Shown: piece by piece, positions 6,332 to 20,138 of the stretch
Numbering within the stretch: the stretch's first letter is position 1
Layout of the letters: each line of letters starts with the position of its first letter
Source of the DNA: Candidatus Hermodarchaeota archaeon
Lineage (GTDB): Archaea; Asgardarchaeota; Lokiarchaeia; Sigyniarchaeales; SOKP01
Length of the DNA stretch: 25,826 nucleotides
NCBI GenBank assembly: GCA_048885925.1
Contig: JBHLLG010000037.1
Span: 1-25,826 of the forward strand
Direction of reading: 5' to 3'
Notes under the pieces: generated by a model
The model's input: the letters and a program-made list of their open reading frames with translations, nothing else
Told to the model about the DNA's origin: nothing
Database searches by the model: none
Position numbers and translations under genes: made by a program

Positions 6332-9127
6332 ATGAAAGCAACTAACATTATAATTGTACCTGAAACTCATTGGGACCGTGAATGGTATCTTACTTTTCAA
6401 GAATTTCGCGCAAAACTAGTCATAATGATTGACAAGTTATTAGAAATTTTAAGAACTGACCCAGATTATAAAAATTTTGTTTTAGATGGACAAGTAATTC
6501 CGATTGAAGATTATTTAGAAGTAAGACCGGAGAGAGAAGAAGAAATTAAGAGATATGTAAAGGAACGAAGACTCTCTATTGGACCCATGTATGTATTGCC
6601 TGATGAGTTTTTAGTTAGTGGTGAATCATTAGTACGAAATTTTTTAATCGGGCATCAGTTAGCAAGAAAATTCGGGAGAGTTATGCAAACTGCTTATATT
6701 CCAGATCCTTTTGGACACATTGCTCAACTTCCACAAATTGTGCACAATTTTGAACTTTCATCAATTATTTTTGAAAGAGGGTTTGGAAATGAGTTTGAAG
6801 AGAATGGACTAAATATGGAATTTATTTGGGAATCTCCAGGAAAATCAGCGTCACTCTTAGCTATTCATCTAGTTAGAGGTTATGGTTCTTTACAAGATCT
6901 AGATCTTTCTTTAAAGGATGGCAAATATATAGAGGCATTGAATAAGATAAAGAGAGTAACCTCTGATATAGAAAATTATATTGCTACACCTATTGTACTA
7001 CTTAATAATGGTAGTGATCATCGGGAAGCATGTCCAGTTATTTCTGAAATAGTAAAACAATGGAATGAGTTAAATCCTGATATATTATTAGAGCAAAATG
7101 ACTTCGAATATTATATTAATAAAGTTATTTCTATAAAACCAAAATTAAAATCCTTTCAGGGTGAACTCCGAGCTAGTAAATATTCACCTGTTCTTTCGGG
7201 AGTACTTTCGGCAAGAATGTGGATAAAGCAAAGAAATACAGAAATAGAATATTTATATGAAAAATACGCTGAACCCTTTTCAACAATTACATGGATTTTT
7301 GATAAATATCAGAAGTTTGTTTATCCTAAGGAGTATTTTCGTACTGGGTTGAAATGGTTAATTAAAAATCATCCTCATGATTCAATATGTGGATGTAGCA
7401 TAGATCAAGTACATAATGAAATGATAACTCGATTTGATTGGGCTGAACAAATAGGAACAGAGGTATTTAATTTATCCATTTCTTATCTTGCTAATTTAAT
7501 TAAGCTTAAGCCTCAAAGTATTAATAGAATTGCCTTAATAGTTATAAATCCTTTACCATGGAAACGTAGAGATATCGTAATTTTCAATGGAATTTCAATG
7601 AAAAAAAATCAATCTCTCAAATTTCCTATAAGTTTTAAAATTGTAGATTCTGATGACAATGAGATTGAATACCAGAGTTTTTATCTAAAACAGAATGCTA
7701 GATTTCGCAGGGAAACCGATATAAACCATCAATTTTTCTTCTTAGCTGATACTCCCGCATGTGGTTTTAAGGTATATTACATCATACTTGAAGAGGAAAT
7801 TAACAAAAATCAAAATTCTAACAAAGAATTCGTTTTGGATGGAAATTTAATTGAGAATATCTTCTATAAAGTTGAAGTAAAAAGAAATGGTCAAATCAAC
7901 ATTTATGACAAAAAACGAGATATTTGGTATGAAGATATTTGCCAATTTGAAGATGTAGCTGACTGGGGGGATGAATACAATTTTTCAGGACCTACAAGTA
8001 AACAGATAGACAAGATATATACAACCAAAGATTCTGAAGTAGTAGAAATTTTAACTTTTCTAAACGGACCCTCTCATAAAATGATAAAGATCAAGTTGAT
8101 ATTGAAATTACCGGCTGCATTAACAGAAAATCGGTTAGGGAGAGAAAAGAAATTAGTTGAAAATTATATTGATCTTTATATTTCATTATACAAAAATATT
8201 AATCGAATAGATTTTAAAATCGATCTTGAAAATAACAGTAAGGATCACAGAATTAGAGTCCTCTTTCCCTCTAAAATTGAATCCGAAAAAATCTGGTGTG
8301 ATGGACACTTTTATATTGTTTCTAGAAATATTCTCTTACCAAATGGTAAACGTTGGGCTGAAAAACCTTCACGAACAAATCATCAAAAGGATTTTATAGC
8401 TTTAAATGATAATTCTAAATGTTTTGCAATTTTAAATCGAGGGTTACCTGAATATGAAGCAATAAAGAATGAGGATGGAACAATAACAATAGCCTTGACT
8501 CTGTTACGCTGTATTGAGTGGCTGTCAAGACAAAATCTAGATTGTAGAAGGAATGATGCAGGTCCAAGCCTTAAAACTCCTGGAGCTCAATGTATCGGAT
8601 CCCACGCATTTGACTTCTCATTAATTATTGAAGAATTTGAAAATAATTGGTTGGATTCAAAAATCCATATCAAGGGAAAAGAATTTAACTGTCCCTTAAG
8701 ACCCATATTCCCTTTAATGTTTAAATCACCTCTACGGAGAGCTGACTTATTATTGCTATCACGAATGGGTGTTTTATCTAATTCAAAAATATTGCCAGAA
8801 AAGAATAACGATTCCTATTTACCTAGTGAAATAAGTTTTCTTGAAATAGATAATAAAAATATTATGCTAAGCGCTTTAAAAAAATCAGAAGTAGGAGAAA
8901 GTCTAATTATTCGAATCTATAATATATCCCCTTCTTTAGAAAGTGCAAATTTGATTTTTTATAAGACTTTAGTTTTAAAAAAGGTTGAAATTGTAAATTT
9001 CTTAGAGGAAAGTCCAAAAATTCAAATTAAGGCTAAAATTCATAGTTTTCATAAAAATAATCTTAAAATAATATTAGAACCATATGTAATCGCTACATTT
9101 AAAATTGAATTTGATAAAATAAAGTGA
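6332..9127 (+). CDS. Alpha-mannosidase, glycoside hydrolase family 38
   Basis: THWDREW, LDGQ, PDPFGH, NGSDH and HDSICGCSID motifs. Confidence 0.93.
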   Translation: MKATNIIIVPETHWDREWYLTFQEFRAKLVIMIDKLLEILRTDPDYKNFVLDGQVIPIEDYLEVRPEREEEIKRYVKERRLSIGPMYVLPDEFLVSGESLVRNFLIGHQLARKFGRVMQTAYIPDPFGHIAQLPQIVHNFELSSIIFERGFGNEFEENGLNMEFIWESPGKSASLLAIHLVRGYGSLQDLDLSLKDGKYIEALNKIKRVTSDIENYIATPIVLLNNGSDHREACPVISEIVKQWNELNPDILLEQNDFEYYINKVISIKPKLKSFQGELRASKYSPVLSGVLSARMWIKQRNTEIEYLYEKYAEPFSTITWIFDKYQKFVYPKEYFRTGLKWLIKNHPHDSICGCSIDQVHNEMITRFDWAEQIGTEVFNLSISYLANLIKLKPQSINRIALIVINPLPWKRRDIVIFNGISMKKNQSLKFPISFKIVDSDDNEIEYQSFYLKQNARFRRETDINHQFFFLADTPACGFKVYYIILEEEINKNQNSNKEFVLDGNLIENIFYKVEVKRNGQINIYDKKRDIWYEDICQFEDVADWGDEYNFSGPTSKQIDKIYTTKDSEVVEILTFLNGPSHKMIKIKLILKLPAALTENRLGREKKLVENYIDLYISLYKNINRIDFKIDLENNSKDHRIRVLFPSKIESEKIWCDGHFYIVSRNILLPNGKRWAEKPSRTNHQKDFIALNDNSKCFAILNRGLPEYEAIKNEDGTITIALTLLRCIEWLSRQNLDCRRNDAGPSLKTPGAQCIGSHAFDFSLIIEEFENNWLDSKIHIKGKEFNCPLRPIFPLMFKSPLRRADLLLLSRMGVLSNSKILPEKNNDSYLPSEISFLEIDNKNIMLSALKKSEVGESLIIRIYNISPSLESANLIFYKTLVLKKVEIVNFLEESPKIQIKAKIHSFHKNNLKIILEPYVIATFKIEFDKIK

Positions 9128-14356: not shown

Positions 14357-16249
14357 TTATTGATTTATCCATTGATATAATTTTCCCAATAAGACTCTTT
14401 TCTCATGATTATTTTTAAGTTTATCAAGACTCGGGATATTCATTAACCACATTGAGGATCTTAATTCTTGTTTTAAGGTTTTTATCTCTTTGATTGTATT
14501 TGATAAAGTATTATCCTTATAATCTTGCCATGCTGATTTTAGAAATTTGAAGGCAAATCCACCTATATTTGCTCCAATTGAGATTGCTTTAGCAATATCA
14601 ACACCATTTCTCAGACCTCCTGTAGCAATTATTAATTTTTGAGTCACTTTTCTAACATTGATTATACTAATCGGTGTAGGAATACCCCATTCTTTGAATG
14701 TATCTGCAATCTTCCGAGTATATACTTCATAACTATAGTCATCGCGTATTGATTCTATTGCAGCAAAACTCGTACCTCCAGCTCCACCGACATCAAATCC
14801 ATCAAATCCTAATAGATCGAGCTTTAAAGCTAATTCTTTATTAAATCCAGTTCCAACCTCTTTAGCTATAATTGGAATATCTGTGTTTTTTCTTAAATCT
14901 TTAAAATTTGATTCAAAATTTTTATAGGAAATATTTCCATCACTTTGAACTAGTTCATGTAGAGCATTAAAGTGTATAGCCATAGCATCAGCATTGATCA
15001 TCTCAATACACTGTCTAAAGTAATCTAAATTAAATTTTGGATCACACAATTGTCCTATACCCAAATTTCCTATCACAGGAATATTTGGGGCAATCTCGCG
15101 TATAATTGTAAATGAATCGATAGTTGAAGGATCTTCTAATCCGATTCTTTGACTACCAACACTCATAATGATATTTTCAGTTTTTGCGGCATTTGCCAAG
15201 ATATTATTTATTGCTTTAGAAACTTGGTGTCCTCCTGTTATTGCTGCGATACAGATGGGTGCTGAAATCTGTTTTTTGAAGAAATTAATAGAAAGATTGA
15301 TTTCATCTAATTCGATTTCTGGAAGTGGATGGTGGATAAGATTAATGTCATCAAAAAAGTTCTTTGAATGTTGCACATTATACTCTAAAGGTATTTTTAT
15401 ATGTTCTATCTTTCTGTTATACAGTTTATTTGGACTAATTTTTTCAGATGTAATTTCTATATTAGTACATTTTATTTTTTGATTAAGTAAAGCTTTCAGA
15501 ATATTGTCATTTTTTTTTCCATTGATAATTTGAACGGGGATATTTAATTTTATAATTTCTTCAATTTCTGATAATTTGCCTTTTATCCCACCAGTAACAT
15601 CTATTTTTTGATCTAATTGTGCTAATTCTATATTAGCTAAATCATTAAGCGTTAGCTTTAGAGCTAATTTTTCTTTCCCATTATCCTTAACATATATACC
15701 ATCCTCTTCTATGGCAAATATAACCTTTGAGATCTTGAACTCTCCAAGTTTTTCACACAATTTTGAAATGATACGATCTCCTGAAAGAATTGAAAATGAA
15801 TAATCCTTACTAAGTAAAATATCTCCATATAGGACAGGAATAATTCCAAGTTCAATTAATTTCTCAATTGGCTCAACAGATTTAAGTACAATTTCATTAA
15901 AATCGTGTATAAAAATACTGGAAGGTTGAATTGAAATCGCTGGGCATCCTTTATCCAATAATTTGTTTATAATTATTGAATTAAATCTAATCATAGCCTC
16001 ATGGGTTTTAGAAAGACCTATTATTTGATCTTTTATAGTAGCATTCAATCCTTGAGAAATTTGATATTTTTTAGCAACAGGATGACCAAAAGATCCACCT
16101 CCATGTACTAAAATGATAGATTTTTTGCTTTCAATGATTTGATCAAGACAGCTTTCTAAAATTTCATCTCTAAATGAAAATGGTTTATTTTTATCTGTTA
16201 ATAAACTTCCACCTAACTTTAATATAAATATCTCCTTAGGGTTTTTCAA
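14357..16249 (-). CDS. fni: Fusion of isopentenyl phosphate kinase and type 2 isopentenyl-diphosphate isomerase
   Basis: IPK half has LKLGGSLLTDK, HGGGSFGH, SGD and DVTGG. IDI-2 half has RKIEH, ITGG, GSQR, KEVG, GAGGTS, WGIPT and TGGLR. TTG at 16249 lies 7 nt after AGGTGA and is preferred over 16270. Confidence 0.92.
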   Translation of the reverse strand: MKNPKEIFILKLGGSLLTDKNKPFSFRDEILESCLDQIIESKKSIILVHGGGSFGHPVAKKYQISQGLNATIKDQIIGLSKTHEAMIRFNSIIINKLLDKGCPAISIQPSSIFIHDFNEIVLKSVEPIEKLIELGIIPVLYGDILLSKDYSFSILSGDRIISKLCEKLGEFKISKVIFAIEEDGIYVKDNGKEKLALKLTLNDLANIELAQLDQKIDVTGGIKGKLSEIEEIIKLNIPVQIINGKKNDNILKALLNQKIKCTNIEITSEKISPNKLYNRKIEHIKIPLEYNVQHSKNFFDDINLIHHPLPEIELDEINLSINFFKKQISAPICIAAITGGHQVSKAINNILANAAKTENIIMSVGSQRIGLEDPSTIDSFTIIREIAPNIPVIGNLGIGQLCDPKFNLDYFRQCIEMINADAMAIHFNALHELVQSDGNISYKNFESNFKDLRKNTDIPIIAKEVGTGFNKELALKLDLLGFDGFDVGGAGGTSFAAIESIRDDYSYEVYTRKIADTFKEWGIPTPISIINVRKVTQKLIIATGGLRNGVDIAKAISIGANIGGFAFKFLKSAWQDYKDNTLSNTIKEIKTLKQELRSSMWLMNIPSLDKLKNNHEKRVLLGKLYQWINQ

Positions 16250-16262
16250 ATATAATTCACCT

Positions 16263-17229
16263 TCATCCAATTAGGGTTTTCCATGCTTCATATCCTTCTT
16301 TTTTAATGGCTATAACAATTTTATTTTGTATTTTTTTATTTTCGGCTAAAGCTATAACTAAACCTCCTCGTCCAGTTCCAGTCAATTTAGCGCCAATCGA
16401 TCCATTTTTTAATGCAATTTCAACTAATAGATCATTAATTTCTCTAGAAACAGTTATATCTTGTAATAATTTATGGTTTTGATACATTAATTTTCCAATA
16501 GCAGGAATATCTCCTTTTATTAAAGCTTTTTTTGCTTTTGCTGCTAACTTTTCATACTCACTAAAAATTTTTTCAAATTTATTTGGATCCTCTTCCTTTA
16601 AACGTCGAACATCAGCTACTACTTCTGTTGTTGAGGCTGTTATCCCTGAATTTATTATAACTAAAGGAATTTTTTTTTGCGATTTAAGAAGATCCATGGT
16701 ATTTTTTCCCCCACTTAAATTTTTAACAAACCAAATCAAACCTCCATAAGTAGAAGCTGTATTATCAATCCCTGAAGGAGTGCCATGATAGGCTTTCTCT
16801 CCTTCATAGGCAGCTTGGTTTATTTTTTCTTCGCTTAGATTAAGATTAAATGTATTATTCAAAGCTCGAGAAAGTGATACACATTGAGCTGCTGAAGCTC
16901 CCACTCCACTAGTCGCGATCAAGTCACCAGAAAAAGTTATTTCAAGCTTCTGATTTTCTACATCGATTTTCAAATGTTCAATTACATTTTTAATTGATTC
17001 TTGTGCCTCATTGAATTTCTGCTTTTTATAACCTGGAGTTGCTGGTCTTTGATCATCAACCATCCAACCACTACCAGGAACTACTTTAACTTCCGCAGTT
17101 GTGGAAGACCCTAATGCCGATGCAATTGCGGGAAGACCATACACAACGAAATGATTGCGTTTATTTCCGAGTTGGAAAATAAAATTCGCCAAAAAGTATG
17201 GTTTTACCGTATCCCTTTCCAGTTCCCAT
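16263..17229 (-). CDS. mvk: Mevalonate kinase, split by a 31-nt putative intron (exon 1 17229-17185, exon 2 17153-16263; 311 aa spliced)
   Basis: ATG at 17229 directly follows the upstream TGA and reads MGTGKGYGKTILFGE. The sequence resumes in another frame as HFVVYGLPAIA. SGVGASAA, HGTPSGIDN and GAKLTGTGRGG motifs are intact. Confidence 0.93.
17154..17184 (-). other. Putative bulge-helix-bulge intron (31 nt) in mvk
   Basis: Insert TTTTATTTTCCAACTCGGAAATAAACGCAAT. Intron stem TTTATTTTCC/GGAAATAAA, central helix GGCG/CGCA, bulges AA^T and AT^C. Removal restores GE-H. Confidence 0.8.
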
Positions 17230-17619
17230 TCATTTCACTTCCACGGTTCCTTCAGAACCATTAACAACTATTTTTTGTCCAGTCTTTATATTATTTATAT
17301 CAATTTGGTCTACGCAAGGAATTTCGCTAATGATACACCCTACAGCAACTATTGTATCGATTTGCTTATTAACTATTGCTGCAGGAGCTGTGTTGTTCTT
17401 TTTCATTCTATACATAGTATAAGAACCTACTGTTGATCCTTTACCTGTTGGAAAAACTAAAATCTTCCCTGTTATTGATTGACCTTCAATTTCATGTCCA
17501 ACTTCAACAATTTTCCCAGAATCGGGGTCAACACCACCATAAAATGAAATTCCATCCTTTGTTACAATTGCTTCTGCTTCTGCCATACCTTTATATATCT
17601 TTCTTCCTTCCATCTTCAT
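17230..17619 (-). CDS. Phosphomevalonate dehydratase small subunit (AcnX swivel domain, DUF126)
   Basis: ISFYGGVDPDSG, GQSITGKILVFPTGKGSTVGSY motifs; ATGA overlap with the large subunit gene. Confidence 0.92.
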   Translation of the reverse strand: MKMEGRKIYKGMAEAEAIVTKDGISFYGGVDPDSGKIVEVGHEIEGQSITGKILVFPTGKGSTVGSYTMYRMKKNNTAPAAIVNKQIDTIVAVGCIISEIPCVDQIDINNIKTGQKIVVNGSEGTVEVK

Positions 17620-18809
17620 TTTATTGCTTCCTCCACACAGTCCTCAATTGAACCAATTTTTACTTTAAATTTATTTTTTGCTCGACCATAATAACACGCT
17701 TTTGCTGAATCTACCATTATTCCATTGAAACGTCCCTTAATTGGAGCAACTACACAACAAGTATCCGCAGCAAACTTAGCTCCTGCAGTTTCAATTATTT
17801 TAGAATAACCAGCTTCGTCAGCTATTCTTTTTGTAGGTCGCGCTGTTGTAATCCAAAATTCCTTTTTTACTCTCTTCCCCTTTAAAAGGTTAGCAATCTT
17901 TTCAATTTCATAAATTGACGCATGAGGACAACCTATACTAACAAAATCTATTTCAGAATCATCGTCAATAAGTTCTGTTCGTGCTTTATCCAGATCTTCC
18001 TGGTTTATTTCAAAAAATATGTTACTTGGTTTAGGATATTTATTATATTCTGGAGTTATTCCTTCCATATGGAATAATGCTGTTCCACCATAAGTTGCGA
18101 TAGAAGCACAAAATGATTTAAGCTCCTCAACAGTTGTATTGTTAATTCCAGTTATATATGGAATTTTTTTTCCTAATTCAACCAACTTAGTTCCAATAAT
18201 TTTACCCAACACACCAAATTCATCTGTACCTTTAAGGGGGATATTAACTTTGACTAAAACTTCCCCATGACGATTTTCATCTAAATGATACCCATATTTT
18301 GGCGTTTTCCCAGTAATAGCAGAAGCTAATGCACTCGGACCCCCTTCACGGTTAGTTCGAGCACCAATAACCGAATTAGCATAACAAACAGCACTACTTT
18401 CAGCCCAAGCAATATGTTGACCAAAATGTGGCGTATTTCCTATTAAGTATGGTGTACATGAGCACGTTGTAATTATACCCATTTTAGCAAAAGCATCAAT
18501 TGCGCGATTTTGATTTTTTGCAAAATCTTTATCAATTCCTAAGGCTTGCCAATTTTCTCGGTCCATTCCAGCTGGATTTAAGGTTGTTAAAACTCTAACC
18601 TTCCCATCTTCTGCCATTTCACTCAAGAATTCTAAACCCGCTTCTCCAAGATTATCATATGAAACTCCGGCTATTTGGACACCATAAACATCGACCATAC
18701 ACTCAGCCTCAAATATATCACCTAAAGTGGTTAGTATCTCCATTGATTTTTGAGCTGCTCTTCCAAATTTCCCATCTAGCATTTCCTGTTCTTCTGAGGT
18801 TAATTTCAT
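17616..18809 (-). CDS. Phosphomevalonate dehydratase large subunit (AcnX catalytic domain, DUF521)
   Basis: TTLNP, CSCTPY, WAESSAV.YANSV.GARTNREG, GCPH and DTC motifs; mevalonate operon context; AGGTGA upstream. Confidence 0.92.
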   Translation of the reverse strand: MKLTSEEQEMLDGKFGRAAQKSMEILTTLGDIFEAECMVDVYGVQIAGVSYDNLGEAGLEFLSEMAEDGKVRVLTTLNPAGMDRENWQALGIDKDFAKNQNRAIDAFAKMGIITTCSCTPYLIGNTPHFGQHIAWAESSAVCYANSVIGARTNREGGPSALASAITGKTPKYGYHLDENRHGEVLVKVNIPLKGTDEFGVLGKIIGTKLVELGKKIPYITGINNTTVEELKSFCASIATYGGTALFHMEGITPEYNKYPKPSNIFFEINQEDLDKARTELIDDDSEIDFVSIGCPHASIYEIEKIANLLKGKRVKKEFWITTARPTKRIADEAGYSKIIETAGAKFAADTCCVVAPIKGRFNGIMVDSAKACYYGRAKNKFKVKIGSIEDCVEEAIK

Positions 18810-18824
18810 TTTTCACTCTTCACC

Positions 18825-20138
18825 TTAAAAATATTTGCTAATATCTACTTTTGGAAATTCTGCAATTTCAAAATTCTTACCTTTTACAACAAGTGGTTTA
18901 GTTAAATCAAAACCAATTTTTGTGGTCATCTTTGTTCCCGGCTCAGCACTCGGATCTAAACTGCTTCCTGGTTCTTTATCTTTAACTATCATTCTTGTAT
19001 CTCCTTGAAAGCGAGTCGCCATTGCCCATTCTACAGATAAAGGATCATAGATATTGATATCTTTATCAACAATAAAGGCATGCTTGCAGCTTGTATGACC
19101 TGTAAAAGTTCCCTCTATTGCTTTTTTTCCATCCTCCTCTGACATTTTATCAATTTGAACTATAGCATGTAACCAAGAAGACCCACCAGGACTAATATTT
19201 ACATCTAAACACTTTACTCCCAATTCATTTACCTTGTTGAATATTGTTGGTTCACGGGGCATACCCATTAGTATCTTATGTTCGAGAGCACCTGGTAAGA
19301 GAGCTTGCCAAATCGCATCCTTTCGATGGGTAATTCTTTTTACCTCAAAGATGGGCTCTTGTCTTATAATGTCATAAGTTTCGGTCAGGTCAACAAAAGG
19401 TCCCTCTGAATGTTTTTCTTCCAAGTAAACACGTCCCTCCAATACAAATTCAGCTTCTGCAGGAATAAGAAGATCTACAGAATTTGCCTTTGTTACTTTA
19501 ATAGGTTCTAAGGCATTAGCTATTTCTAACTCATTGACTCCAATATCTACCGAAGTTGCTCCAGCAATTAATATATTCGGAGTATTTCCTATACAGAAAG
19601 CGACATCTAGTTCACCGTTTTTTTCTAAAAATTTATGGAAGTGCCGACCACTTACAATTCGAGTAGAAAATTTGTTTTTAGAAAATTGCATTGCTCTATG
19701 GAAGTCTAGATTTTGACCATAGTCTGGATCTTGAGTAACAACAACAGCAGAACTAATATAATTTCCACCATCCTTTTCACAATGAAATAAAATTGGCAGT
19801 TTGTCTAAATCAATATTTGATTCAATAACTTGTTGACAGGGAGCATTAGTGACTACTTCTGGTTTTGAACGTTCTTTGATTGCTTTTGAGAGCATTGGTA
19901 TGAGATCTGCGGGAGTAACACCAAAATATGATGCAATTACATTTTTCGTGCAAAATACGTTACCAACAACACGAAATTCAGATTCTCTAACATTATTAAA
20001 TATTACTGGAGTTGGCTCAATTTCTTTTAATATTCCCGCGATTTCTAATTTTTTTGATACTTCAAGATTTACTTTTCGAAGAAGACCATCTTCATCAATT
20101 TGGTTTATGTATTCTCTAAATCCCATATTATTACTCAT
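18825..20138 (-). CDS. UbiD-family decarboxylase, probable trans-anhydromevalonate 5-phosphate decarboxylase
   Basis: PAEAEFVLEG, EGPFVD, VDKDINIYD, WAMATRFQ and GSSLDPS motifs; adjacent to the AcnX genes and mvk. Confidence 0.9.
   Translation of the reverse strand: MSNNMGFREYINQIDEDGLLRKVNLEVSKKLEIAGILKEIEPTPVIFNNVRESEFRVVGNVFCTKNVIASYFGVTPADLIPMLSKAIKERSKPEVVTNAPCQQVIESNIDLDKLPILFHCEKDGGNYISSAVVVTQDPDYGQNLDFHRAMQFSKNKFSTRIVSGRHFHKFLEKNGELDVAFCIGNTPNILIAGATSVDIGVNELEIANALEPIKVTKANSVDLLIPAEAEFVLEGRVYLEEKHSEGPFVDLTETYDIIRQEPIFEVKRITHRKDAIWQALLPGALEHKILMGMPREPTIFNKVNELGVKCLDVNISPGGSSWLHAIVQIDKMSEEDGKKAIEGTFTGHTSCKHAFIVDKDINIYDPLSVEWAMATRFQGDTRMIVKDKEPGSSLDPSAEPGTKMTTKIGFDLTKPLVVKGKNFEIAEFPKVDISKYF

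What the first reader, a model, noticed from the sequence alone, without database searches (positions are those of the whole stretch)
17136..17229. 31-nt frameshifting intron candidate in the mevalonate kinase GK.ILFGEH motif
On the minus strand, ATG 17229 abuts the upstream stop and gives MGTGKGYGKTILFGE-FYFPTRK* (TAA at 17163-17161). HFVVYG resumes at 17153 in another frame. Fold: GGCG (17190-87) with CGCA (17159-56), bulge AA^T, bulge AT^C, and a 9-bp intron stem with one bulged U and an AACUC loop. The exon side is relaxed: one U-A pair, an internal loop, then a 7-bp ACCATAC/GTATGGT stem. The ORF caller's start (MANFIFQLGNKRN) lacks the conserved catalytic Lys. The rest of the gene is intact and sits mid-operon in an essential pathway, which argues against a pseudogene.
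Basis: partly seen in the sequence, partly recalled or inferred. Interest (0 to 1): 0.88.

Follow-up and report, generated by a model that had tools for sequence, protein, structure and literature searches.

The report
Mini-intron inside Lokiarchaeal mevalonate kinase gene
A 31-base insert that breaks the reading frame of an essential lipid-pathway gene in an Asgard (Loki-type) archaeon looks like a small intron cut out by the cell's tRNA-splicing enzymes, which would make it one of very few introns known in archaeal protein-coding genes.

Summary
On the minus strand, 15 codons (MGTGKGYGKTILFGE, 17229-17185) are followed by a 31-nt insert (17184-17154). The mevalonate kinase frame then resumes at His 17153.

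The insert is not an assembly artefact or a pseudogene lesion:
- 52 of 89 orthologues in the same Lokiarchaeal (Promethearchaeota) family carry a 28-31 nt insert at exactly this GAR|CAY site. The other 37 are seamless.
- All 52 inserts contain an in-frame stop.
- In 20 of 52 no single frameshift could restore the frame.
- In 0 of 52 is there a matching landing codon for ribosome hopping.

The insert folds as a relaxed bulge-helix-bulge (HBh'-like) motif. Its predicted cuts, between the 2nd and 3rd bulge nucleotides, give exactly GE|H. The helices covary. Synonymous sites in the exon parts of the structure are frozen only in insert-bearing genes.

The host encodes a crenarchaeal-type EndA alpha subunit and RtcB.

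No transcript data could be found, so splicing itself is inferred (confidence about 0.85).

The closest precedent is the crenarchaeal cbf5 pre-mRNA intron. In the literature I could search, this would be a new gene and a new phylum for that kind of intron.

The parts
17185..17229 (-). Mevalonate kinase exon 1: 15 codons, MGTGKGYGKTILFGE. It carries the conserved Lys and the first half of the GKxILFGEH motif.
   Evidence: The same 15-residue peptide (xGxGKGYGKTILFGE) is conserved in frame in 52 insert-bearing and 37 insert-less orthologues. An insert-less orthologue (L031, 311 aa) covers TIGR00549 positions 3-276, whereas exon 2 alone covers 11-276.
17154..17184 (-). 31-nt candidate BHB-type intron (UUUUAUUUUCCAACUCGGAAAUAAACGCAAU). 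It contains the in-frame TAA at 17163-17161.
   Evidence: Homologous 28-31 nt inserts at the identical site in 52 of 89 family orthologues and in 30 of 80 metagenome contigs. A covariance model built from them hits only this place in the genome (60.9 bits).
16263..17153 (-). Mevalonate kinase exon 2: 296 codons plus stop, starting HFVVYGLPAIASALG.
   Evidence: Pfam GHMP_kinases_N and _C. TIGR00549 mevalonate kinase at 210 bits against a cut-off of 163.
17187..17190 (-). 5' strand of the central helix H (GGCG, exon 1: Gly codon plus the G of the Glu codon).
   Evidence: Pairs with 17156-17159. Across 51 distinct sequences: G-C 51; C-G 47, U-A 3, U-G 1; G-C 47, G-U 4; the fourth pair is G-U 20, G-C 1, G.A 30. 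The Gly codon is GGC or GGT only in insert-bearing genes, against all four codons in insert-less genes.
17156..17159 (-). 3' strand of the central helix H (CGCA, the last intron bases before the 3' bulge).
   Evidence: The central helix is present in the MFE of 51 of 52 core sequences.
17184..17186 (-). 5' bulge A-A|U. The predicted cut lies between A17185 and U17184.
   Evidence: The bulge is AAA 39, AAU 10, AAG 1, AGA 1, AGU 1 of 52. The rule that the cut falls between the 2nd and 3rd bulge residue comes from PMC2738675, section 8.
17153..17155 (-). 3' bulge or loop A-U|C. The predicted cut lies between U17154 and C17153. It is closed on the exon side only by U17191-A17152.
   Evidence: The bulge is AUC 35, AAC 12, AGC 4, ACC 1 of 52. 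The U-A closing pair is found in 51 of 51. The Phe codon supplying that U is TTT in 52 of 52 insert-bearing genes against 15 of 37 insert-less genes.
17160..17183 (-). Intron hairpin h': a 9-bp stem (17175-17183 with 17160-17168) and the loop CAACUC (17169-17174).
   Evidence: MFE. Five of its 9 pairs show changes on both sides across 51 sequences.
17197..17208 (-). Exon 1 arm of the long-range exon-exon helix (GGUAAAACCAUA).
   Evidence: Pairs with 17131-17141. Mean paired is 10.35 of 11 in 52 insert-bearing genes against 7.57 of 11 in 37 insert-less genes.
17131..17141 (-). Exon 2 arm of the exon-exon helix (UAUGGUCUUCC).

Best explanation
The 31 nt at 17184-17154 (minus strand) are an archaeal bulge-helix-bulge-type intron in the mevalonate kinase pre-mRNA of a Lokiarchaeon (Promethearchaeota, Asgard).

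Proposed structure:
- The last exon-1 bases (GGCG) pair with the last intron bases (CGCA) to form the central helix.
- An 8-9 bp intron hairpin abuts that helix across a 3-nt bulge (AA|U).
- The 3' site (AU|C) lies in a bulge or loop on the other side, closed by a single U-A pair.
- An 11-pair exon-exon helix further out holds the two exons together.

Proposed mechanism:
- The tRNA-splicing endonuclease EndA cuts between the 2nd and 3rd nucleotide of each bulge. In this lineage EndA is the crenarchaeal-type alpha-beta enzyme with the broad-specificity loop.
- RtcB joins ...GGC GAA to CAU UUC...
- This restores the frame and the GKTILFGE|HFVVYG motif, giving a 311-aa kinase.
- Unspliced RNA yields only a 22-aa peptide.

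Shown: the sequence anatomy, the comparative pattern, the RNA-level constraint, and the presence of the enzymes. Inferred: the cleavage and ligation themselves, and any regulatory use.
For: 1. Site-exact polymorphism. Of 134 family genomes, 90 have the orthologue. One is cut by a contig end, so 89 were scored. 52 carry an insert (48 of 31 nt, 3 of 30 nt, 1 of 28 nt) exactly between the Glu and His codons; 37 are contiguous. An independent set of 80 metagenome contigs gives 30 with and 50 without. Eleven of 11 MVKs from other phyla are contiguous.

2. Translation cannot read through. All 52 of 52 have a frame-0 stop inside the insert. 22 of 52 also have a stop in the exon-2 frame inside the insert. 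20 of 52 leave no window for any single shift. Lengths of 28, 30 and 31 nt differ modulo 3.

3. Structure.
- The named BHB-plus-exon-helix structure has 83.3% of cells paired, against 35-42% when slid.
- Its covariation score is 0.141 against 0.105 for shuffles (0 of 500 reach it).
- It has 32 double-change cells against 15.2 expected (0 of 500).
- Position 57 is A only where the Gly codon is GGU (3 of the 4 GGU genes, 0 of 48 GGC genes).
- The central helix appears in 51 of 52 core MFEs, and the exact 3-nt bulge with an abutting stem in 34 of 52.

4. The BHB cut rule (2nd|3rd bulge nucleotide; PMC2738675 section 8) gives exactly the GAA|CAU boundaries required by the protein alignment. The mirror arrangement does not pair (by inspection).

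5. Exon constraint tied to the insert.
- The exon-exon helix has 10.35 of 11 pairs in insert-bearing genes against 7.57 of 11 in insert-less genes.
- In 8 of 8 neighbour contrasts on the tree the counts are 10-11 against 6-8.
- Third-position entropy at model-paired sites is 0.48 against 1.33 bits. At unpaired sites it is 1.03 against 1.15 bits.
- The Phe codon is TTT in 52 of 52 insert-bearing genes against 15 of 37 insert-less genes.

6. Machinery.
- The EndA alpha subunit (198 aa) best matches the A. pernix alpha subunit 3p1z_B (E = 5.5e-38) over its full length, including the loop with the KPR segment.
- A second EndA paralogue is present in 14 of 17 same-genus genomes.
- RtcB is present.
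- Asgard EndA is reported as (alpha-beta)2 with the L1 loop (PMC5829648 passages).

7. The gene is intact. None of the 89 sequences has a stop in exon-2 codons 31-295, and the gene sits inside the AMPD / AcnX / MVK / IPK-IDI operon.
Against: - No spliced RNA, circular intron or junction peptide was seen. No RNA holder was listed.
- The motif is not a strict hBHBh'. In this window the 4th central pair is G.A, as in 30 of 51 sequences, and the outer helix h is a single U-A pair.
[quoted passage not shown] BHB-likeness alone is therefore weak evidence.
- In the 91-nt context the MFE contains the central helix in only 22 of 52 sequences. An alternative exon 1-exon 2 pairing (GGCGAA with UUYGUN) competes. 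The BHB-constrained fold costs a median of 2.0 kcal/mol and up to 8.3 kcal/mol; in this window it costs 0.6.
- RNAalifold on the 52-sequence MAFFT alignment did not recover the structure.
- The EndA beta paralogue was not found in this assembly, which is 95% complete.
- Sequences are related, so shuffle statistics overstate significance.
Confidence: 0.85

Rival explanations
1. Translational bypass (ribosome hopping, as in phage T4 gene 60 or yeast mitochondrial byps). The ribosome takes off at the Glu or Gly codon, skips the structured 31 nt, and lands before CAU.
For: There is a conserved hairpin directly after the take-off region, and an in-frame stop lies within the gap in 52 of 52 sequences. 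The gap length is in the range of known bypass elements (recalled, not from a call).
Against: In 0 of 52 sequences does the codon before CAY match the take-off codon GAA/GAG; those codons are AAU, UAU, AAA, UAA, UAG, CAA or UAC. The only GAA inside this window's insert is out of frame with CAU (by inspection). Bypass also does not explain the covarying pairing between the exon GGCG and the last intron bases, nor the exact fit to the BHB cut rule.
Confidence: 0.05
2. Programmed +1 ribosomal frameshift within the insert, giving a kinase with about 10 extra residues inside the GEH motif.
For: In this window the +1 frame is open from TTG 17192, so a shift between 17192 and 17163 is formally possible. 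49 of 52 inserts have a length of 1 modulo 3.
Against: 20 of 52 orthologues have no window for a single shift, because stops in both frames overlap. Three inserts are 30 nt long with in-frame stops. The insert's 'codons' vary in the way a stem varies, not the way a peptide varies. Ten extra residues would split a motif that is contiguous in 37 insert-less orthologues and 11 outgroup MVKs.
Confidence: 0.02
3. No repair at all. The gene is expressed as a truncated kinase from an internal start (TTG 17192 here), or as two polypeptides, or it is a decaying pseudogene.
For: ORF callers produce a 309-aa protein from TTG 17192. 22 of 52 orthologues have some in-frame ATG, GTG or TTG between the last stop and the His codon.
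Against: - 30 of 52 orthologues have no such start.
- Exon 1 remains a conserved, in-frame 15-codon peptide with its own start in the insert-bearing genes, identical in pattern to the insert-less ones.
- There are no stops in exon 2 in 89 of 89 sequences.
- The insert itself is conserved with compensatory changes across a whole family, which decay would not produce.
- The missing segment holds the conserved Lys of the GHMP motif (established knowledge of mevalonate kinases, recalled).
Confidence: 0.03
4. The insert is removed from the RNA by a mechanism other than EndA/RtcB, for example an unknown nuclease-ligase pair that recognises the hairpin and the exon-exon helix.
For: The outer half of the BHB is weak: one U-A pair and, in most sequences, a G.A fourth central pair. 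The strongly conserved 11-pair exon-exon helix is not a standard BHB element.
Against: The boundaries fit the EndA cut rule exactly. The lineage has a broad-specificity EndA and RtcB. Relaxed BHB motifs are the norm for the cbf5 pre-mRNA intron (PMC2738675 section 8; PMC10485636 passages). No other candidate machinery was seen.
Confidence: 0.05

Closest known systems
cbf5 pre-mRNA intron of Desulfurococcales and Sulfolobales (Watanabe 2002; Yokobori 2009, PMC2738675: abstract and section 8 read)
   Same: A short intron inside a protein-coding ORF. It has an unconventional or relaxed BHB at the exon-intron borders, with cuts between the 2nd and 3rd bulge residues. The host has a hetero-oligomeric EndA. 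Distribution is patchy, with lineage-specific losses.
   Different: A different gene (mevalonate kinase; cbf5 in this genome is an uninterrupted 342-aa frame). A different phylum (Asgard/Promethearchaeota, not Thermoproteota). The intron lies 45 nt from the start codon. It is flanked by an 11-pair exon-exon helix whose synonymous sites are frozen. Splicing is not yet shown experimentally.
HVO_1309 5'-UTR BHB intron of Haloferax volcanii (PMC7714728, passages read)
   Same: An mRNA substrate of the tRNA-splicing endonuclease outside tRNA and rRNA.
   Different: That intron lies in the 5' UTR and is cut by an alpha'2 enzyme. The present one interrupts the coding frame.
BHB introns of Asgard tRNA genes (bioRxiv 10.64898/2026.10.13.758758, abstract and passages read)
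   Same: The same lineage and presumably the same enzymes. Relaxed motifs and repeated gains and losses are reported there.
   Different: Those introns are in tRNA genes. The text has 0 occurrences of 'mRNA' and mentions 'protein-coding' only for neighbouring genes.
HAC1/XBP1 unconventional splicing in eukaryotes (recalled; RtcB's role in XBP1 splicing is stated in the abstract of PMC8718801 seen in the listing)
   Same: A tiny frame-switching intron in an mRNA, removed without the spliceosome and ligated by a tRNA ligase (RtcB in metazoa).
   Different: There the cut is made by IRE1 at twin stem-loops and is stress-regulated. Here the fold is BHB-like, the presumed nuclease is EndA, and regulation is unknown.
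Translational bypass elements (T4 gene 60; mitochondrial byps) - recalled
   Same: A short structured gap with a stop codon inside an ORF.
   Different: Those need matched take-off and landing codons, which are absent in 52 of 52 sequences here.

Membership tests
Archaeal BHB intron, strict hBHBh' form | A 4-bp central helix flanked by two 3-nt bulges on opposite strands, with helices of at least 2 bp on both outer sides. | tested here: not met
   The outer exon helix h is a single U-A pair followed by a U-rich internal loop. The 4th central pair is G.A in this window and in 30 of 51 sequences.
Archaeal BHB intron, relaxed forms (HBh' / 3-of-4 central pairs) | A central helix with at least 3 of 4 pairs, one canonical 3-nt bulge, and an abutting intron helix h'. 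| tested here: met
   Three Watson-Crick or wobble central pairs in 51 of 51 sequences. A 4th pair (G-U or G-C) in 21 of 51. The 3-nt 5' bulge with an abutting 8-9 bp stem appears in 34 of 52 MFEs, and the central helix in 51 of 52.
Archaeal BHB intron | Cut sites between the 2nd and 3rd bulge nucleotides coincide with the true exon borders. | tested here: met
   The structure-derived cuts (AA|N and NN|C) equal the GAR|CAY borders fixed independently by alignment to 37 insert-less orthologues. The rule is from PMC2738675.
Archaeal BHB intron | Helices are maintained by compensatory change. | tested here: met
   7 pairs with changes on both sides; 32 double-change cells against 15.2 in shuffles (0 of 500); 83.3% paired against 35-42% when slid. 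The sequences are related, so these are not probabilities.
Archaeal BHB intron | The host has a splicing endonuclease able to cut relaxed motifs, and an RNA ligase. | tested here: inconclusive
   An alpha subunit with the crenarchaeal-type loop is present, and RtcB is present. The second (beta-like) paralogue is found in 14 of 17 congeners but not in this assembly.
Archaeal BHB intron | Excision and exon ligation are observed in RNA. | not testable with these tools
   No RNA holder was listed. Three metatranscriptome runs were laid and 0 contigs mapped.
cbf5-type pre-mRNA intron | The intron lies in the cbf5 (pseudouridine synthase) gene. | tested here: not met
   cbf5 of this genome has a complete TruB_N match in a 342-aa open frame with no stops. 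The present intron is in mevalonate kinase.
Translational bypass element | Matching take-off and landing codons flank the gap. | tested here: not met
   0 of 52.
Programmed +1 frameshift site | A stop-free path from frame 0 to frame +1 exists in all members. | tested here: not met
   There is no such path in 20 of 52 sequences. Three inserts are 30 nt long.
Mevalonate kinase (GHMP; TIGR00549) | The score exceeds the curated cut-off, and the N-terminal GKxILFGEH motif is present. | tested here: met
   Exon 2 alone scores 210.3 bits against a cut-off of 163 and covers model positions 11-276. Exon 1 encodes GKTILFGE. The insert-less orthologue covers positions 3-276.

The most novel reading that the evidence does not exclude
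The intron is a switch rather than a passenger. It sits 45 nt into the ORF, every copy has an in-frame stop, and an alternative exon-exon pairing competes with the BHB. Splicing by EndA/RtcB could therefore gate how much mevalonate kinase is made, coupling isoprenoid-lipid precursor supply to the state of the tRNA-processing machinery. That would be an Asgard counterpart of IRE1/RtcB-type HAC1/XBP1 frame-switch splicing, and possibly the first of a wider, so far unannotated set of mRNA introns in Asgard archaea.
Probability: 0.12. Interest if true: 0.92.

Novelty: new member of a known kind. Interest (0 to 1): 0.78.

Why it matters
- Introns in archaeal protein-coding genes are extremely rare in the literature I could search. 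One paper states 'only one example' (cbf5) besides its own 5'-UTR case (PMC7714728). A 2023 review counts 'at least two archaeal genes' (PMC10485636).
- A conserved, family-wide intron in an essential lipid-pathway gene of Lokiarchaeia would add a third gene, and the first in the closest prokaryotic relatives of eukaryotes.
- It also has a practical side. Gene callers truncate this kinase in 52 of 89 genomes, so pathway reconstructions of Asgard MAGs may mis-score MVK.
- The 52 natural variants and 37 natural 'deletions' give a ready-made mutational series for testing what a broad-specificity EndA needs in an mRNA.

Tried and rejected
Transcript evidence. The look-up of sequencing runs (kind rna) listed no RNA holder. 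The 3 same-study metatranscriptome runs laid at 80% likeness gave 0 contigs. This is no evidence either way.

cDNA-like copies. Among 50 insert-less metagenome contigs, none kept 10 or more of the 11 exon-helix pairs, so no spliced-looking record was found.

More copies of the element. Covariance model R1 hit only the MVK site in this genome (60.9 bits). The next hits had E = 0.27 or worse, so this is not a repeated or mobile family here.

More mRNA introns.
- A genome-wide scan looked for a loose BHB core whose removal fuses two frames of at least 40 codons each.
- It gave 8087 hits, against 7773-8147 in three controls.
- Stricter structural filters gave no excess either.
- The scan has no power. 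It would also miss MVK itself, whose exon 1 is only 15 codons. It therefore neither shows nor excludes further introns.

Other searches.
- Rfam gave no match in 16800-17600 at E <= 1.
- ARAGORN found no tRNA in the window.

Folding.
- RNAalifold on the 52-sequence MAFFT alignment returned an unrelated 5-pair structure. On the first 12 sequences it recovered the exon helix, the central helix and the intron stem. I ascribe the failure to register shifts in the stem, but did not test that.
- In the 91-nt context the MFE contains the BHB central helix in 22 of 52 sequences.

EndA beta subunit. It was not found in this assembly with PF01974 at E <= 10, with PF02778, with phmmer using the alpha subunit, or with tblastn/phmmer using the second paralogue of G014.

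Explanations rejected. Frameshift, bypass, split or truncated protein, and pseudogene are covered under the rival explanations. A DNA-level artefact is rejected because the insert recurs in 52 genomes and 30 metagenome contigs.

Literature. Searches found no report of an intron in an archaeal mevalonate kinase gene or of an mRNA BHB intron in Asgard archaea.
- The library holds only open-access papers and bioRxiv.
- Supplements were not consulted and may bear on the EndA tables of PMC5829648 and of the 2026 preprint.
- PMC11052028 (passages only) has 0 occurrences of intron, frameshift or pseudogene.

Rows dropped.
- L098/G101 was cut by a contig end and left out of all counts.
- L019 and L020 (another family, 47-48% identity) were used only as outgroups.
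- In one search a looser regex mis-scored L130 as '9'. One search shows it is a normal 31-nt insert.
- The, 66 loci largely repeat the genomes and were used only for taxon names and outgroups.
Full report
WHAT IS IN THE WINDOW

On the minus strand an operon encodes five products:
- a UbiD-like decarboxylase (18825-20138);
- the AcnX large subunit (17616-18809);
- the AcnX swivel subunit (17230-17619);
- mevalonate kinase;
- a fused AA_kinase/FMN_dh protein (14357-16270).

Together these form the archaeal anhydromevalonate-type lower mevalonate pathway.

The kinase is broken.
- ATG 17229 directly follows the TGA of the swivel gene and opens MGTGKGYGKTILFGE. That frame runs on as FYFPTRK and stops at TAA 17163-17161.
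- HFVVYGLPAIASALG... starts at CAT 17153 in the +1 frame.
- Exactly 31 nt (17184-17154) separate the Glu and His codons.
- Exon 2 alone scores 210 bits on TIGR00549 but covers only model positions 11-276.
- An insert-less orthologue of 311 aa covers positions 3-276. The missing positions are therefore those encoded by the 15 upstream codons.

WHO HAS IT

Record titles name the relatives as Promethearchaeota/Promethearchaeia, that is Lokiarchaeota, Asgard. The genome is 3.9 Mb with 29% G+C.

- Of 134 genomes in the family, 90 have the orthologue at E <= 1e-90. One is cut by a contig end, so 89 were scored.
- 52 of the 89 carry an insert at exactly the same GAR|CAY junction: 48 of 31 nt, 3 of 30 nt, 1 of 28 nt. 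The other 37 read ...TTY GGN GAR CAY... without interruption.
- An independent collection of 80 metagenome contigs gives 30 with the insert (28 of 31 nt, 2 of 30 nt) and 50 without.
- MVKs of Thorarchaeota, Hadarchaeum, Thermoplasmata and Aenigmatarchaeota records are contiguous in 11 of 11 cases.

This rules out an assembly artefact and a private lesion.

TRANSLATION-LEVEL RESCUE DOES NOT WORK

- All 52 inserts have a stop in frame 0.
- 22 of 52 also have a stop inside the insert in the exon-2 frame.
- 20 of 52 leave no position at which a single frameshift could join the two frames.
- Insert lengths are not constant modulo 3.
- In 0 of 52 does the codon preceding CAY match the take-off codon GAA/GAG, which known hopping elements require (that requirement is recalled, not from a call).
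- Only 22 of 52 have any ATG, GTG or TTG from which a separate C-terminal protein could start.
- Exon 1 stays a conserved in-frame peptide (xGxGKGYGKTILFGE) with its own start in both groups.
- None of the 89 genes has a stop in exon-2 codons 31-295.

The gene is therefore under selection as a whole, and the insert must be removed before decoding.

THE RNA STRUCTURE

The 45-nt core of this window folds as GCG/CGC, a 3-nt bulge AAU, and a 9-bp stem. The energy is -8.0 kcal/mol with z = -2.48; 4 of 200 shuffles fold as well.

Written as a BHB, the elements are:
- central helix H: G17190-G17187 with C17159-A17156 (3 Watson-Crick pairs plus G.A);
- 5' bulge: A17186 A17185 | U17184;
- intron helix h': 17183-17175 with 17168-17160;
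- 3' bulge: A17155 U17154 | C17153, closed on the exon side by U17191-A17152 only.

Published cbf5 work places the cuts between the 2nd and 3rd bulge residues (PMC2738675 section 8). Applied here, that rule gives exon 1 ending in ...GGCGAA and exon 2 starting with CAU... These are exactly the borders demanded by the insert-less orthologues.

Results on the 52-sequence alignment A2:
- The named structure has 83.3% of cells paired, against 35-42% when the 3' partners are slid by 1-3 columns.
- The covariation score is 0.141 against 0.105 in shuffles (0 of 500 reach it).
- There are 32 double-change cells against 15.2 expected (0 of 500).
- Central helix, by pair (51 distinct sequences): G-C 51; C-G 47, U-A 3, U-G 1; G-C 47, G-U 4; the fourth pair is G-U 20, G-C 1, not paired 30.
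- The intron position opposite the Gly third base is A only in 3 of the 4 GGU genes and in 0 of 48 GGC genes. L099 lies in a different deep clade from L007 and L036, so this represents at least two events.
- Five of the 9 intron-stem pairs show changes on both sides.

Folded one by one, 51 of 52 cores contain the central helix. 34 of 52 show the exact 3-nt bulge with the stem abutting.

THE EXONS ARE PART OF THE STRUCTURE

RNAalifold on the first 12 sequences also found a long-range helix. It pairs GGAAAGACCAUA in exon 1 (17208-17197 here) with UAUGGUCUUCC in exon 2 (17141-17131).

- This helix has on average 10.35 of 11 pairs in the 52 insert-bearing genes, but 7.57 of 11 in the 37 insert-less genes, which encode the same amino acids.
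- In 8 of 8 comparisons between tree neighbours that differ in insert state, the counts are 10-11 against 6-8.
- Third-codon-position identity within 16 codons of the junction is 0.719 in insert-bearing genes against 0.494 in insert-less genes. Far from the junction both are about 0.53.
- Split by the model, third positions that pair have entropy 0.48 bits (insert) against 1.33 bits (none). Third positions that do not pair have 1.03 against 1.15 bits. This argues for structural constraint rather than co-conversion of flanks.
- The Phe codon giving the closing U is TTT in 52 of 52 insert-bearing genes against 15 of 37 insert-less genes.
- The Gly codon in the central helix is GGC or GGT only in insert-bearing genes, against all four codons in insert-less genes.

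HISTORY

I built a quick ML tree from exon-2 codons 31-295, deliberately leaving out the structured region. It has 91 rows including 2 outgroups; L098 was dropped.

- On this tree the insert state needs 17 changes, of which at least 5 are forced by well-supported branches.
- Four of the five small basal groups are insert-bearing: 8 + 4 + 3 + 1 rows. One basal group of 3 is not.
- The simplest reading is an insert present early in the family followed by repeated precise losses, as reported for cbf5. Repeated gain or transfer is not excluded, and the root is only a drawing convention.

MACHINERY

- The genome has one EndA gene (198 aa). Its best solved relatives are the catalytic alpha subunits of the heterotetrameric enzymes of Aeropyrum pernix (3p1z_B, E = 5.5e-38, aligned over residues 18-198, including the loop with ...KPR...), Sulfolobus tokodaii and Pyrobaculum aerophilum (organism names for these PDB codes are recalled).
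- A second, weaker PF01974 paralogue of about 207 aa is present in 25 of 29 relatives, including 14 of 17 of the same genus. It is not in this 95%-complete assembly.
- RtcB is present.
- Kaneta et al. report that Asgard archaea have the (alpha-beta)2 enzyme with the L1 loop linked to broad substrate range (PMC5829648 passages).
- A 2026 preprint finds two paralogues in 44 of 60 Asgard genomes and heavily interrupted tRNA genes.
- ARAGORN calls introns in 19 of the 31 tRNA genes it finds here (unverified).

CAVEATS

- No RNA evidence could be obtained.
- The motif is relaxed. There is no real outer helix next to the 3' site, and in this window only 3 of 4 central pairs form.
[quoted passage not shown] The case therefore rests on exact borders, covariation and synonymous-site constraint, not on BHB-likeness.
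- In a 91-nt context the MFE shows the central helix in only 22 of 52 sequences, because GGCGAA can pair instead with UUYGUN of exon 2. Forcing the BHB costs a median of 2.0 kcal/mol: at most 3 kcal/mol in 34 of 52, a maximum of 8.3, and 0.6 in this window.
- The sequences are related, so the shuffle counts are not probabilities.

COMPARISON WITH WHAT IS KNOWN

- The nearest precedent is the cbf5 pre-mRNA intron of Desulfurococcales and Sulfolobales. It has a relaxed BHB, a hetero-oligomeric EndA, and lineage-specific loss (PMC2738675).
- A 5'-UTR intron in Haloferax HVO_1309 is the only other mRNA case named in PMC7714728 and PMC10485636 (passages).
- cbf5 in this genome is uninterrupted.
- My searches found no report of an intron in a mevalonate kinase gene or of an mRNA BHB intron in Asgard archaea, within an open-access library only.
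- The model built from the intron finds no second copy in this genome.
- A crude genome-wide scan had no power to find unrelated mRNA introns.

VERDICT

This is most likely a relaxed BHB intron of the mevalonate kinase pre-mRNA, removed by EndA and RtcB (confidence about 0.85).

Noticed in passing
window 14357-16270 (-): A single 637-aa ORF joins an amino-acid-kinase-family domain (isopentenyl phosphate kinase-like, residues 14-250) to an FMN_dh domain (type-2 IDI-like, residues 455-622). Its TTG start overlaps the MVK stop. This looks like an IPK-IDI2 fusion.
   Followed up: no
L051, L054, L055, L057, L061, L065, L066 (insert-bearing) and L053, L068 (insert-less), at the codon 15 codons before the Glu|His junction: In 9 of 89 orthologues the position of the MVK start codon reads ACG, directly after the upstream TAA. 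This suggests non-AUG initiation, or a start somewhere I did not identify.
   Followed up: no
upstream of MVK in the family loci: There are two gene contexts. In one, MVK directly follows the AcnX swivel gene and mostly has an ATG start. In the other, MVK stands alone behind a GGTGA-like motif and has a TTG start. TTG starts number 20 of 52 in insert-bearing genes but 2 of 37 in insert-less genes.
   Followed up: partly
window 17185-17190 with 17145-17150 (-): An alternative exon 1-exon 2 pairing (GGCGAA with UUCGUU) competes with the BHB central helix and wins in the MFE of this window by 0.6 kcal/mol. It could be a conformational switch or just noise.
   Followed up: partly
G000 whole genome; relatives G001-G035: The second (beta-like) EndA paralogue is present in 25 of 29 relatives but is missing from this assembly. 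By eye it lacks the catalytic His that the alpha subunit has; the catalytic triad is recalled, not from a call.
   Followed up: partly
G000 C8:82388-83811, C4:22663-22904, C17:2791-2989 and others: ARAGORN finds only 31 tRNA genes and predicts introns in 19 of them. These include implausibly long ones (1335 nt in a tRNA-Pro call). The tRNA set is probably incomplete or heavily interrupted.
   Followed up: no
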